A stretch of DNA of 64,000 nt from Octopus vulgaris (Eukaryota). The notes under the pieces were generated by a model. That model saw nothing but the letters and a program-made list of their open reading frames with translations, was not told the DNA's origin and made no database searches. The position numbers were made by a program, and so were the translations under genes. The stretch covers positions 40,300,001 to 40,364,000 of the forward strand of contig OX597816.1 of assembly GCA_951406725.2 (NCBI GenBank), written 5' to 3'. This document shows, piece by piece, positions 3,186-37,159 of this stretch; within the stretch, counting starts at the first letter, position 1; every line of letters starts with the position of its first letter.

Positions 3186-3591
3186 TATTTAGAGTATGAG
3201 TTTATATGTGTATGATTTTGGAGGGGTGTTGCATAGTAGTATGTGGGTGTGTATCTCCTAAATCACCTATTTTATAGCATTTAAGTTTATCCGTCCGCCG
3301 TTCTTTTCCTTGGATTTTGTTATGAGTTCCGTTAATTATTGTTGTTGTTATTATTATTATTATTATTATGATGCTCTGATGGGCACTTTCCATACAATAA
3401 CCATCAGAGCATCATAATAATAATAATAATAACAACAATAATTAACGGAACTCATAACAAAATCCAAGGAAAAGAACGGCGGACGGATAAACTTAAATGC
3501 TATAAAATAGGTGATTTAGGAGATACACACCCACATACTACTATGCAACACCCCTCCAAAATCATACACATATAAACTCATACTCTAAATA
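3186..3591. repeat. Near-perfect inverted repeat, ~195-bp arms with 18-bp spacer
   Basis: 3186-3382 is the reverse complement of 3401-3591 apart from trinucleotide copy number; spacer GCACTTTCCATACAATAA. Confidence 0.95.
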
Positions 3592-14528: not shown

Positions 14529-15045
14529 TCGCTGGAAGATGGTGGGGATTCGTACTTCTCCTTACAATATATATATCGTGTGGAGATTGCATCGATAACT
14601 AGCTGCAAGATGCATCCTTCTGGGGTTAAAAACAGTAGTAATGTTGTGTTCCTAAGGAAAGGCCATGTTGAAGAGTCGATAAACGTTACTTCTCTGTATA
14701 GTAATTACTTTCATCTCTTATAGAGATTTTTTATCTAGCTACTTAGCTTGTTGCAAGATCAGTGACTGGTTGTCATTTATTATTTTTTTATAATATATTA
14801 CGAGCTGGAGCGGACTACTATTATCTCTAGCGGACGAGTATTCACTACTGAGATAATCAGAAACAGCTCCAAACCGGACTGTCTCGTGCTCCCGTCGCTG
14901 ACAAAAGATGGTGGGGGTTTCGCTCCCCTGCTTGCATTATATATCGGGTGCAGATTGCATCGATAACCACCTGGAAGAGGCGTCGTCCTGGGATTAAAAG
15001 CAGTGGTAACATTGTGTTCCTGGCGATAAACGTTACTTCTCTCTT
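14528..15045 (+). mobile_element. Candidate non-LTR retrozyme: ~1.4 tandem copies of a ~370-bp unit with a degenerate type I hammerhead
   Basis: GATGGTGGGG at 14538 and 14907, GATTGCATCGATAAC at 14585 and 14953 (period 368-369). Core CTGAGA 14848-14853, GAAA 14860-14863, stem III ACAG/CTGT, GTC 14881-14883, inside a long imperfect hairpin of about 14795-14943. Confidence 0.55.
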
Positions 15046-27858: not shown

Positions 27859-30018
27859 TTGTGTGTCTGTGTTTGTCCCCTTAGCATTGCTTGACAACCG
27901 ATGCTGGTGTGTTTACGTCCCCGTCACTTAGCGGTTCGGTAAAAAGAGACCGACAGAATAAGTACTGGGCTTACAAAGAATAAGTCCCGGGGTCGAGTTG
28001 CTCGATTAAAGGCGGTGCTCCAGCATGGCCGCAGTCAATGACTGAAACAAGTAAAAGAGTAAAAGAGTAAAGAGTATAGCAACCAATCACTGGCTCACCA
28101 TTAGTATGGAAGCTGTTAACGGGAATGTTTCAGAAAACATTTACGAGTAGCTTGGCAACTAGAATTTACTACTCGAAAACAAAAAGGTTGTAGGAAGAAG
28201 GCTGGAGGAAAGCATGATCTATTTTATATAGACAAAGCAGTTCTAAATGAAGTAAAAGCTAGAGAGAAAAGTCCAACAATAGCAAGGATAGATTTTACAG
28301 GAAAGCCTATGACATGATCCCACACTCATGGATAAGTGAATGTTTGAGTATATTCAGAATAGCAGACTACATAAAAGAATTAATTAGCTTTAGCATGAAG
28401 AAATGGAAAGTAGATTTAAACTCAGGTGACACACTCTTAGGGAAAGTTAATATCAAAAGAGGAATTTTCCGGGGGAACTCCTTATCCCCTTTCATATTTG
28501 TCTTATGTTTGATCCTCCTCAGTTTAGTATTGAGGAAAGCATACGCAGAGATAGCAAGGGAAAAATTAACCATTTCCTCTACATGGATGATCTGAAGTTT
28601 TGTAGTGAGAATGAATATGAGATAGATTCATTGGTACATACTAAGACTCTTCAGCAAAGATGTAGGCATGGAATTTGGCATAGATAAGTGTGCAATATTA
28701 GTCAAGAAAACGAGATAGGTAGTCAGCAGCGAAGGCATCCAATTACCAGATAGCCAAACATTAAATTCATTGACAGGAGGAGAGAGTTATAAGTATCTAG
28801 GAGTATTAGAATCTGACAGAATACTAACTACCGAAATAAAAATCGAAAATTGAGAAAGAAGGCTGTGGGAACTAATGAAGTCAAAGCTAAATGGTCCGAA
28901 TCTAATGAAGGCTGTAAATACCTGGCCTGTATCATTACTTAGATACTCAGCAGCTTTAGCATATTGGAAAAAAATGAATTAGCAAAGCTAGACAGAAAAC
29001 CTAGGAAGGAATTCAATATGAATGGAGGACTCCACCCAAGGGTAGGAGTAGCAAGATTATACCTACCTAGAAAAGAAGGTGGAAGACTGCGTGAGGTTAG
29101 CTAGAGTAGATATAGATTCCTATGTAGGTAATAGTGAAGAAAGTTTATTAAAAGCTTCTAGACTCACAGCAAGATATAGGGAAACCAAAACACCAAACGA
29201 AGTTAAAACCAGAAAAAGAACAGGAGTTATCTGACCGGCAGGATAAGGTGTTGCATGGTAGATTCCTAAAGATAGTGGCAGCGAATAATAATAGTGAGAC
29301 ATGGTTGCAGAAAGGAAAGCTGGGGAAGGAGAAAAAAGTTTGTTAGTAGCACACAAGATCAAGCATTAAGGACTAATTGGATAAAAGCCAAGAAAGACAA
29401 AAACCAAGTAGATTCCCAATGTGGATAATGAAAATCAAAAGAGGAAAGTGTTACTTATATAGTAAGTGAATGTAGCATGCTGGTACAGAAAGAATACAAG
29501 AAAATACACGACAATCTAGGGAGATCATTCACTGGGAGCTATGTAGAAAGCTAGGATTTGAACATACTGATAAATGGTATGAACATGAGCCTTGTAAAGT
29601 ATTAGAAAGTAAGAAATACAAGATGTTGTGGAACTTTAACATTCAGACTGACAGAATAATAGAAGTTAGAAGGCCTGATTTAGTAATAATAGATAAAGAG
29701 AACAGAAAATGCCAGATGATTGCAAATTTTTCCCTAGCTATCTCTGAACCGATATCATGCCTTTGCCTTCCTCAATATTAAACTGAGGGGGATCAAACCG
29801 AATAATGATAAAATTAATATGAGAAGTGTAGAAAAATAGCAAAGTACCAGGACCTGGCTATTGAATTACAGAGACTGTGGAAAGTGCGAGTAAAATGTAT
29901 ACCAGTAGTTATAGGTGCATCGGGAACTATCTCCAATGTTCCGAATAGATGGATAGAGGAAATAAGCATGAAACCCAGTTTAGTACAGCTCCAGAAAACA
30001 GTCTTATTAGGGACAGCT
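27405..30018 (+). mobile_element. R4-clade retrotransposon (same family as 4640-6960), rearranged and truncated at both ends
   Basis: IPDWMTRG, KAYDMIPHSWI, IKRGIFRGNSLSPFIFVLCL, INHFLYMDDLK, GMEFGIDKCA, RRPDLVIIDKENRKC, LQKTVLLGTA; high nucleotide similarity to 5385-6825. Confidence 0.9.
27657..28075 (+). mobile_element. SINE group C, young, inserted in the R4 element
   Basis: Full-length match to the family with (TAAAAGAG)n tail. Confidence 0.93.
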
Positions 30019-31138
30019 TGACGGACCGATCGAGCGATGCTAAATGATTCCGATAAGTGGCAATTTACTTTAACCACCGAACAGATGTCCCTGTACATTG
30101 CAACGATCCAGCCTCTGAAAACTGGACGGAAACCAGCTGCTGCGAGAACAGCCTCCAAGTATTGGTGGTCGACCTTATCAAAAGCTTTCGATTGATCTAA
30201 ATTGATCAAGGCCCCACCTATGTCATGTTCCTTACCCATCCTCTCTATGATGTAGTGCATGAGGTGGAGGATGTATATAGTTCTGGTGCGGATAGCGCTT
30301 GTCTGTGCATCACCAGCTAACGTATCGACGACAAGCGCCAACCTCTTGGCTAACACCTTGGCCAAAATCTGACAATCTACACTCAGCAGAGTAATGGGCC
30401 TAAAGTTATCAATTTTGTCCCCCTTATTCAGATCCTTCCTCACCAGGTCCACCACTCCACGGTTCACAGCACTGGGAATTCTCTCGTTCTGATGCCAGTC
30501 GTGGTATATGTCTGCCAAGAAATCACCGAACAAGTCTGATATATGTCTTAGGCTGTTACCGGTATTTCGCAGAACTCCGCTTCTCTGGTTGAGAGGTACG
30601 GCATGCCACTTAGATAGGAGATGAAATCCACCACCGTCCCAGAACCACCTCTCGCCCCATACATTTCGGCGAATTGTCGCTGAAATTCCTCATACATCTG
30701 CTTGGGCTCGATTATCATGCTCCCATCACAACTCGCCAAAGACCGAATTGTTGCTTTGTTTCTACGTAGCGCCTCTGCCACCCGGGCGTCTCGAACGGCT
30801 TTCGTTCCCTCCCGTCTCAGTGCACGCGCCCTAGGTCTGACATTGCAACATTCGTGCTTGGCATTGAAGAACTGAACAAGAGCCAATCTCGCCGCTAGCA
30901 CGTCGGTCGCTATCCTCTCCTAAGCGTCTCTTCTAGCTTTCTAACTAAGCCTCTCTCCATTCTAGATTCCTCTAATGTTATTTCCTTACCAAGACTTACA
31001 GCTTCTACTCCAATAGCCCTTTTCAGAGATATCCACCATCCGTTGTTGAGGATTACGCCCATCATCTCTCGATGGACAAACTTGCTGACACGATCTCTGA
31101 AAGCTTGGCGCACCGGGAAGGACGCGTTCAGCTTCCAG
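30017..31138 (-). mobile_element. Tx1/L1-clade ORF2 fragment (tower region and RT N-terminal part)
   Basis: WKLNASF...WWISLKRAI; NFRPITLLSVDCQILAKVLAKRL; LINLDQSKAFDKVDHQYL; FSIARSVRQ. Confidence 0.9.
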
Positions 31139-36339: not shown

Positions 36340-36610
36340 CCACAAGCTTACAAGCTAATCGCGACACTATCTCCTGTTCTGGCACTGTTATTCTCTATAT
36401 CGCTAGCGGGGAGATGGATCCCCGTTACCTCTAGCAGTCAGGAGTCCAAGAAAGGTCGAAACCACATGATCTGGTGGTCTGAGTGGGGAGGTGACGGGGA
36501 TTTATCTCCCCGCTAGCGGTATATAAGAGAGTTCATATTCAAACCAAAGTCAATATAAGAGTTTCTCTCCTGGTAACTAACGCAGTATAGTTTGTTCTTG
36601 TATAACATCC
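36340..36610 (+). mobile_element. Second candidate retrozyme copy: type I hammerhead at the apex of a 36-bp stem
   Basis: Arms 36396-36431 and 36488-36523; GTCAGGA 36437-36443 in place of CTGANGA, stem II GTCC-aagaaa-GGTC, GAAA 36458-36461, stem III ACCAC/GTGGT, cleavage C at 36479. Confidence 0.6.
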
Positions 36611-37159
36611 ACATTTAAGTGTGAACAAATATTATCTCTCGGTATTAGTATTATCCCTGTCGCTAATATATATATATATTTATATATATATGAGTTTATA
36701 TGGAATGGATCCAGGAGTTAATTTGTTAAAATAAAGGTGGGGCTCCAGTGTAACCATATTTATATGAATGAAGCAAGTAAATTTGTATAAAAGAATTAGA
36801 GAATACAGAGTAAATTGTAGTTATATAAATTAATTTAACTATGTGGTAATTTGAGTATATTTGTATTTCATCGTAGTTAATTTTAAATTTTAGGTTTCTA
36901 GTGAATGATATCCTAATGTTTAGTGATTTTATTCTCTCTTAGAGATCTTATTCTCGTTTTGTTAAAGCTAAAATTTGTATAATTCACCTAAAAAGCTGAT
37001 TTTAACGTACTGACTACTTGGTAAAATTATTAATTTATTAATTGATTAATTAATTTTACTCTTTATCATATATATATATATAAATTTGTGTGATATGCAT
37101 GCATGCATATATATGTATATATATATATATATTTGAATTCATATTTTCATAGAACTCTC

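What the first reader, a model, noticed from the sequence alone, without database searches (positions are those of the whole stretch)
36340..36610. Second, dispersed hammerhead-in-hairpin copy whose 36-bp stem differs only by G-U pairs
Seen: arm TATATCGCTAGCGGGGAGATGGATCCCCGTTACCTC (36396-36431) pairs with 36488-36523, and all four non-Watson-Crick positions are G-U on the plus strand (A-C on minus). The 56-nt apex holds stem II GTCC-aagaaa-GGTC, GAAA, a perfect 5-bp stem III ACCAC/GTGGT and GTC; the first core box reads GTCAGGA, two changes from CTGAGGA. The flanks align loosely and in order with the 14.7-15.0 kb unit (AGCT.AC..AGCT...TTATT..TATA upstream; GGGG.TT...CTCCCC.GCT.GC..TATA and AAGAG....TCCTGG...GCAGT...TGTTC.TG downstream). 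Inference: a diverged subfamily of the same element with different stem II/III sequence but the same topology, suggesting structure-level conservation.
Basis: partly seen in the sequence, partly recalled or inferred. Interest (0 to 1): 0.75.

Follow-up and report, generated by a model that had tools for sequence, protein, structure and literature searches.

The report
Broken retrozyme copy with polished stem
This hairpin is one old, broken copy of a common jumping repeat that carries a hammerhead (self-cutting RNA) motif of a known kind; this copy has lost the core of that motif, and its only oddity is an unusually perfect stem, likely because one arm was copied onto the other.

Summary
The hairpin is real: 32 Watson-Crick and 4 G-U pairs. 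It is one decayed copy (36342-36673, +) of a ~354-nt dispersed and tandem repeat, family A. The 14.5-15.0 kb unit belongs to a sister family B; their consensuses are 70.5% identical. In this copy a 15-nt deletion removed helix I 5' and the CUG of the core, so 'GTCAGGA' is a deletion junction. Copies show a Penelope-type footprint: a non-LTR retrozyme, a published class that this scan has noted at other DNA of this genome. The G-U bias is largely inherited from the family; later decay is close to strand-neutral. One thing remains odd: this copy has the best-paired stem of 81 and a left arm unique in the genome. Arm-to-arm template switching is the likeliest cause; selection is not excluded. Cleavage and expression are untested.

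The parts
36342..36673 (+). One near-full monomer of repeat family A (~354-nt unit), 79.9% identical to the family consensus, between a (TCAC)n tract and a (TA)n tract
36396..36431 (+). Left arm of the long stem (extension of helix I). Private or rarer states that match the right arm at 36405, 36421, 36423, 36425, 36428; family G-U kept at 36416 and 36426; new G-U at 36417
36439..36440 (+). Junction of a 15-nt deletion that removed part of the distal helix, the bulge, the 5' strand of helix I and core bases C3/U3-U4-G5 (placement can slide by one base)
   Evidence: no such insertion listed in the orthologue, so shared with organism D
36440..36443 (+). Remnant of the first core box (A6-N7-G8-A9)
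   Evidence: alignment to family
36444..36457 (+). Helix II (4 bp, 6-nt loop); one pair broken here (36445 T against 36456 T)
36458..36461 (+). GAAA core box
36462..36469 (+). Helix III palindrome of the family (8-mer), broken here by two changes (36462, 36466)
36469..36471 (+). Predicted cleavage triplet AUC of family A; the cut would fall between 36471 and 36472
   Evidence: inferred from hammerhead consensus, not assayed
36472..36477 (+). 3' strand of helix I (TGGTGG); its partner is deleted in this copy
36488..36523 (+). Right arm of the long stem; 36494 G>A is mirrored by 36425 C>T; 36519 A>G makes a new G-U
14531..15021 (+). Partial tandem (about 1.4 units) of sister family B (~358-nt unit); its hammerhead is also broken (one base missing from the first core box, GAAA changed)

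Best explanation
The locus is a single old copy of a ~354-nt protein-free repeat family whose consensus holds a type I hammerhead at the tip of a long G-U-rich stem; the family likely spread as a non-LTR retrozyme copied by a Penelope-type reverse transcriptase, and this copy has lost the ribozyme core by a 15-nt deletion and is predicted to be inactive. Shown: the family, its sister family B, the helix register, the deletion, the insertion footprint. Inferred from published retrozymes: tandem copies were transcribed, hammerheads cut (probably as dimers, through the palindromic helix III) to release monomer RNAs that circularise, and a Penelope RT/GIY-YIG enzyme pasted them back as 5'-variable partial tandems, often with an inverted 5' piece. 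The plus-strand G-U bias was shaped in the active parent RNA and is inherited. The extra perfection of this copy's stem most likely arose after insertion by one or more arm-to-arm template switches (my odds for this step about 50%; chance plus picking the best hairpin 25%; a lost parent with a tighter stem 13%; selection 12%).
For: Family: 54 matches from 40 scored of 1539 candidates, 2686 candidates with a second query; B 981 candidates. This fits the canonical metazoan type I form: helix I 6 bp, helix II 4 bp, short palindromic helix III (PMC4209133, passages). Core pair 3-8 among 91 informative of 110 units: U3-A8 54, U3-G8 21, C3-G8 13, C3-A8 3 (p=1e-4). Footprint: 5'-to-5' inverted pieces in 17 of 80 A loci and 11 of 30 B loci, none tail-to-tail; 24 of 80 and 15 of 30 longer than a unit; 66 of 80 A 3' ends in a 70-nt zone. 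Open RT plus GIY-YIG frames exist in the genome. Stem oddity: 36 of 36 paired and 32 Watson-Crick, against medians of 30 and 24 in 81 full stems; 0 of 200000 neutral simulations at the copy's own rate and 1e-5 at 60% of it; three changes in 5 nt copy the opposite arm, one mirroring a change in the right arm; C at 36421 and 36423 in 1 of 98 left arms genome-wide, the query itself.
Against: No cleavage or expression data. No autonomous partner found by sequence: one 24-nt match (E 0.008) in 30 GIY-YIG loci. No target-site duplication is evident at this copy. Rfam gave no hammerhead match in the window at E<=1 nor in 8 loci at gathering score. 21 of 91 cores are U3-G8 and position 8 is part of a CpG, so some A8 may be plain decay. 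The 3' end clustering may be inflated because queries ended near that zone. For template switching: two family G-U pairs (36416, 36426) survive between the matched sites, so one long tract needs two reversions; a single 5-9 nt tract still gives only 2.5e-5 to 3e-3; organism D has A, not C, at 36421 while sharing 36423 and 36425, which may mean separate events. A modest A>G over T>C excess at stem A-U pairs (56/1197 vs 31/1209, p=0.006; p=0.046 without one subfamily site; B p=0.067) shows decay is not fully strand-neutral.
Confidence: 0.8

Rival explanations
1. The dead copy has been taken over by the host as a structured RNA (proto-microRNA, siRNA source or ADAR substrate), and selection keeps and improves the 36-bp stem.
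For: Best-paired stem of 81, none of 9 arm changes breaks a pair; neutral simulation at most 1e-5; against organism D the window states at 36405, 36421 and 36482 all pair better (-93.3 vs -73.1 kcal/mol with all D states); both residual new mismatches are G-U on +.
Against: The orthologue in organism D (about 3% diverged; one contig, depth 6.3) has two insertions and two pair-breaking changes in the left arm, so the stem is not kept across close species. The locus was picked for its hairpin. The family consensus stem is as stable (-98.1 over a 16-nt longer span). No Rfam match. The 56-nt structured apex is unlike a typical pre-miRNA loop (own knowledge).
Confidence: 0.12
2. The perfect stem is luck: a copy in a low-CpG-decay setting, picked from about a thousand because it looks good.
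For: 11 of 19 CpGs are intact here and CpG decay varies widely between copies; another copy also reaches 36 of 36 paired, with 28 Watson-Crick; the family has roughly 600-2700 copies.
Against: Expected number of such copies genome-wide is at most about 0.03 (1e-5 times 2700); three matched changes cluster in 5 nt.
Confidence: 0.2
3. The copy comes from a separate, nearly extinct parent element with a tighter stem.
For: Second-highest non-CpG divergence from the consensus (0.156, median 0.097) with many CpGs intact; family A has linked variant sites.
Against: Best full-length hits are 76-77% identical; the left-arm variant occurs once in 2.8 Gb.
Confidence: 0.1
4. Families A and B are solo pseudo-LTRs of an old Penelope-like element rather than separate retrozymes.
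For: Same inverted and partial-tandem footprint as PLEs (PMC8557442 passages); PLE loci here carry U3-A8 hammerheads; animal retrozymes are proposed to derive from pLTRs (bioRxiv 10.64898/2026.07.22.740005, part 1 of 5 and passages).
Against: Units follow each other directly in arrays of up to about 4 with no coding DNA between; no homology to 30 GIY-YIG loci. Flanks of family loci were not scanned for RT remnants.
Confidence: 0.15

Closest known systems
Metazoan non-LTR retrozymes (Cervera and de la Pena 2020, PMC7229834; section 14 and passages read; mussel 350-390 bp repeats)
   Same: 150-450 bp protein-free units, one type I hammerhead each, dispersed and tandem copies, highly self-paired RNA predicted.
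   Different: No mention of octopus or cephalopods in that main text. Here the families are old, and the hammerhead tops a ~45-bp stem. Circular RNA and cleavage are untested. This copy is broken.
Canonical metazoan type I hammerheads and PLE hammerheads, including the U3-A8 variant of Schistosoma Cercyon (PMC4209133, passages read)
   Same: Helix I 6 bp, helix II 4 bp, short palindromic helix III, U3-A8 alongside C3-G8.
   Different: The palindrome is 8-10 nt and fully covaries between A and B; many A copies have U3-G8.
Endonuclease-positive Penelope-like element insertions (PMC8557442, passages read)
   Same: Partial tandems with an inverted 5' piece; microsatellite flanks at some copies.
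   Different: No ORF; no sequence link to the 30 GIY-YIG loci tested.
Template-switch mutations that fix RNA stems (PMC8794818, abstract and outline read; PMC5453318 and PMC8604942, search listing only)
   Same: Clustered changes that make one arm the complement of the other, including a two-sided change.
   Different: Here two ancestral mismatches survive inside the matched region, and the event order is not resolved.

Membership tests
Non-LTR retrozyme | Short (150-450 bp) protein-free unit, dispersed and in tandem | tested here: met
   Units of 354 and 358 nt; 24 of 80 and 15 of 30 loci longer than one unit
Non-LTR retrozyme | One type I hammerhead per unit (family level) | tested here: met
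   Descriptor hit in both in-script consensuses (A read with A8), covariation on alignment A1, 15 and 1 exact genomic matches to core patterns; Rfam models did not score it
Non-LTR retrozyme | Complete hammerhead in this copy | tested here: not met
   15-nt deletion, broken helix II pair, broken palindrome; no descriptor hit in the window
Non-LTR retrozyme | Highly self-paired RNA with strand preference | tested here: met
   Circular fold of consensus: A -144.5 (+) vs -115.3 (-); B -147.5 vs -119.2; 64-69% paired
Non-LTR retrozyme | Self-cleavage and linear or circular monomer RNA in tissue | not testable with these tools
   No assay; no RNA holder listed, which is no evidence either way
Non-LTR retrozyme | Target-site duplication when present | tested here: inconclusive
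   None evident in 30-nt flanks of this copy; not searched systematically in other copies
Penelope-mobilised element | Partial tandems with inverted 5' piece and variable 5' ends | tested here: met
   17 of 80 (A) and 11 of 30 (B) 5'-to-5' inversions, 0 tail-to-tail; absent at this copy
Penelope-mobilised element | Autonomous partner sharing terminal sequence | tested here: inconclusive
   RT plus GIY-YIG frames exist; only 30 of 148 GIY-YIG matches were compared, one weak 24-nt hit
microRNA precursor | Processed mature and star reads; match to a known family | not testable with these tools
   No Rfam match at the locus; supplements of PMC9699675 gave no hits, but the control term also missed in file 2

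The most novel reading that the evidence does not exclude
After its ribozyme died, this retrozyme copy had its stem repaired step by step in one lineage and is being turned into a host double-stranded RNA hairpin (proto-microRNA or ADAR substrate), while the family's G-U richness partly records A-to-I editing of the mobile RNA before reverse transcription.
Probability: 0.1. Interest if true: 0.6.

Novelty: new member of a known kind. Interest (0 to 1): 0.25.

Why it matters
As a family it adds two old sister retrozyme lineages with a fully covarying helix III palindrome, which supports the dimeric-hammerhead model, but the class, the U3-A8 core and the Penelope link are published. The single point of wider interest is the near-perfect stem in a dead copy: a datable test case, with an orthologue in a close species, of whether template switching alone can build long RNA hairpins from retrozyme debris.

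Tried and rejected
Rfam: no hammerhead at E<=1 in the window (132 matches, nearly all microsatellite-driven miRNA models) or at gathering score in 8 loci. One search used mis-numbered columns for three helices and is disregarded; helix II is misaligned by one column between A and B in A1, so its 57.9% is an underestimate in both counts. Young subfamily: none; best pairwise identity 76-84% apart from one 96% duplicate. Sisters sharing this left arm: none. Family-wide arm correction: not seen (C at the 36421 position in 0 of 97 other left arms, T in 5). ADAR footprint: weak; the stem A>G rate (0.047) is close to the rate outside (0.040) and the B signal rests on two probable subfamily sites. Autonomous partner: none among 30 GIY-YIG loci. 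Expression: no RNA holder listed. Runs X10, X12, X13 held nothing usable and X2, X3, X6 gave no spanning piece. Octopus miRNA supplements: uninformative; supplements of the bioRxiv paper were not available, and species tables in the supplements of PMC7229834 and PMC4209133 were not read, so a prior listing of these families cannot be excluded. Literature searches for a description of these families: (none found in the held library); for retrozyme plus ADAR: (one cancer circRNA review, listing only). Earlier scan notes: no look-alike of this sequence and nothing near it.

Full report
Observation. The arms 36396-36431 and 36488-36523 pair with 32 Watson-Crick and 4 G-U pairs on the plus strand around a 56-nt apex. 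The region folds far better than shuffles, more so on plus (z -8.5) than minus (z -5.7). Homology with 14735-15040 is significant (1 of 1000 shuffles local, 0 of 1000 global). Rfam finds no hammerhead in the window.

What it is. The window lies in a 2.8-Gb animal genome, octopus-like by my inference and so named in earlier scan notes. The locus is one copy of a repeat family, A: 54 matches from 40 scored of 1539 candidates, 2686 candidates with another query, about 600-800 well-preserved copies by pattern scaling. The unit is 354 nt and this copy spans 36342-36673 at 79.9% identity to the consensus. The 14.5-15.0 kb element is a 1.4-unit partial tandem of family B (358 nt; 981 candidates). The consensuses align over 346 columns at 70.5% identity; 49 of 54 mapped pairs hold in both, 7 by two-sided changes. 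Both families are old: 72 to 91% identity of copies to the A consensus, 15 exact matches genome-wide to the A core pattern and 1 to the B pattern.

The hammerhead register. The family alignments give helix I as CCAYCA, directly before the first core box, paired with TGGTGG; a 4-bp helix II; GAAA; a helix III that is an 8-nt palindrome, different in A and B; and a predicted cut after AUC (A) or GUC (B), just before TGGTGG. On alignment A1 (59 sequences: 30 of the 70 gap-poor A segments, 28 of 33 B segments, and the query) this register pairs 79.1% of cells with 126 two-sided changes, above all 500 shuffles and all slides. The two-sided changes are mostly single events between A and B counted many times, so they are about 7 independent changes. 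The form matches the canonical metazoan type I hammerhead with a short palindromic helix III that works as a dimer (PMC4209133, passages); helix III is predicted unstable as a monomer. In family A the core pair 3-8 is U3-A8 in 54, U3-G8 in 21, C3-G8 in 13 and C3-A8 in 3 of 91 informative units (p=1e-4). U3-A8 is a published variant; CpG decay at positions 7-8 may add to A8.

This copy is broken. A 15-nt deletion at 36439/36440 removed the bulge, the 5' strand of helix I and the first three core bases, so GTCAGGA is a junction. Helix II has a T-T mismatch and the palindrome has two changes. Deletions of 5 nt or more in this part of the hairpin recur in the family (8 of 81 full stems cover column 100). 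The B copy in the window is also broken.

How the family moved. 3' ends cluster in a 70-nt AT-rich zone in 66 of 80 A loci, 5' ends vary more (37 of 80), arrays exceed one unit in 24 of 80, and 5'-to-5' inverted pieces occur in 17 of 80 A and 11 of 30 B loci with none tail-to-tail. That is the layout described for Penelope-like elements (PMC8557442, passages). The genome holds many GIY-YIG frames, some open for 781 aa, and the two tested also match RT. None of 30 such loci shares real sequence with A or B. Transcription, dimeric cleavage, circularisation and Penelope-driven reinsertion are inferred from published retrozymes (PMC7229834, section 14 and passages; bioRxiv 10.64898/2026.07.22.740005, part 1 of 5 and passages), not shown here.

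The G-U question. The A consensus has 6 G-U pairs and one G-G mismatch in these 36 pairs, so the plus-strand bias belongs to the parent. Of the four G-U here, two are the family state and two are private A>G changes. Across 80 other stems, derived G-U against A-C at consensus Watson-Crick pairs is 208 to 164 (p=0.026) overall and 105 to 88 (p=0.25) without CpG pairs. With one unit per locus (76 of 110 units kept), A>G exceeds T>C at stem A-U pairs (56/1197 vs 31/1209, p=0.006; 0.046 without one subfamily site), C>T does not exceed G>A (p=0.36), and B shows a similar but non-significant trend driven by two sites. This is a weak bias, explained by subfamily variants as well as by editing.

The remaining oddity. 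This copy has 36 of 36 pairs and 32 Watson-Crick, the most among 81 full stems (medians 30 and 24; next 29; one other copy reaches 36 paired), although it is the second most diverged at non-CpG sites. Neutral simulation gives 0 of 200000 at its own rate and 1e-5 at 60%. Three changes within 5 nt (36421, 36423, 36425) copy the opposite arm, the last mirroring 36494. The variant is unique in the genome, and C at these positions occurs in 1 of 98 left arms, so neither a subfamily nor a family-wide correction explains it. Template switching is known to fix stems in this way (PMC8794818, abstract). Simulated copying of the whole arm makes such a stem common (0.09-0.15), but needs two reversions to the family G-U; a short tract gives 2.5e-5 to 3e-3. 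An orthologue in organism D (one 372-nt contig, depth 6.3, 8 substitutions and 3 inserted letters over 341 nt) shares the deletion and most arm states, but has G at 36405, A at 36421 and insertions that weaken the stem (-73.1 vs -93.3 kcal/mol). The stem is therefore not conserved across close species, which counts against long-term selection, and the order of events at 36421 is open.

Verdict. A real but broken copy of a non-LTR retrozyme family with a Penelope-type footprint: a new member of a known kind. I found no description of these two families in the held library, and the scan has noted related elements elsewhere in this genome but not this sequence. Interest 0.25.

Noticed in passing
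window 3186-3591: Fold-back of two 181-nt arms, 99% complementary, 44 nt apart, after an (AAT)n tract; looks like a young inverted Penelope-type or MITE insertion; no hammerhead descriptor hit.
   Followed up: no
window 29814-30689 (-): 290-aa open frame matching RVT_1 (E 2e-10): a reverse-transcriptase fragment of unassigned type.
   Followed up: partly
L142, L144, L146, L147, L150, L155, L161: GIY-YIG loci carry a U3-A8 type I hammerhead with a 4-nt palindromic helix III (L142 with a longer one); L141 has a CCGANGA-type core.
   Followed up: no
family A columns 81/174 and the matching place in B: A purine-purine mismatch interrupts the long stem at the same position in both consensuses (G-G in A, A-G in B); it may be a kept feature of the active RNA, and this copy has lost it.
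   Followed up: partly
family A loci: CpG decay ranges from 0 to 76% intact and does not track other divergence, so old copies could serve as a record of local germline methylation.
   Followed up: no
L003 and L020 (C22:23.75 Mb and C22:24.28 Mb): Two arrays 96% identical, 0.5 Mb apart: a local duplication, not young transposition.
   Followed up: partly
window 36700-36900: A second, unrelated repeat follows the element (raised contig depth in run X9).
   Followed up: no
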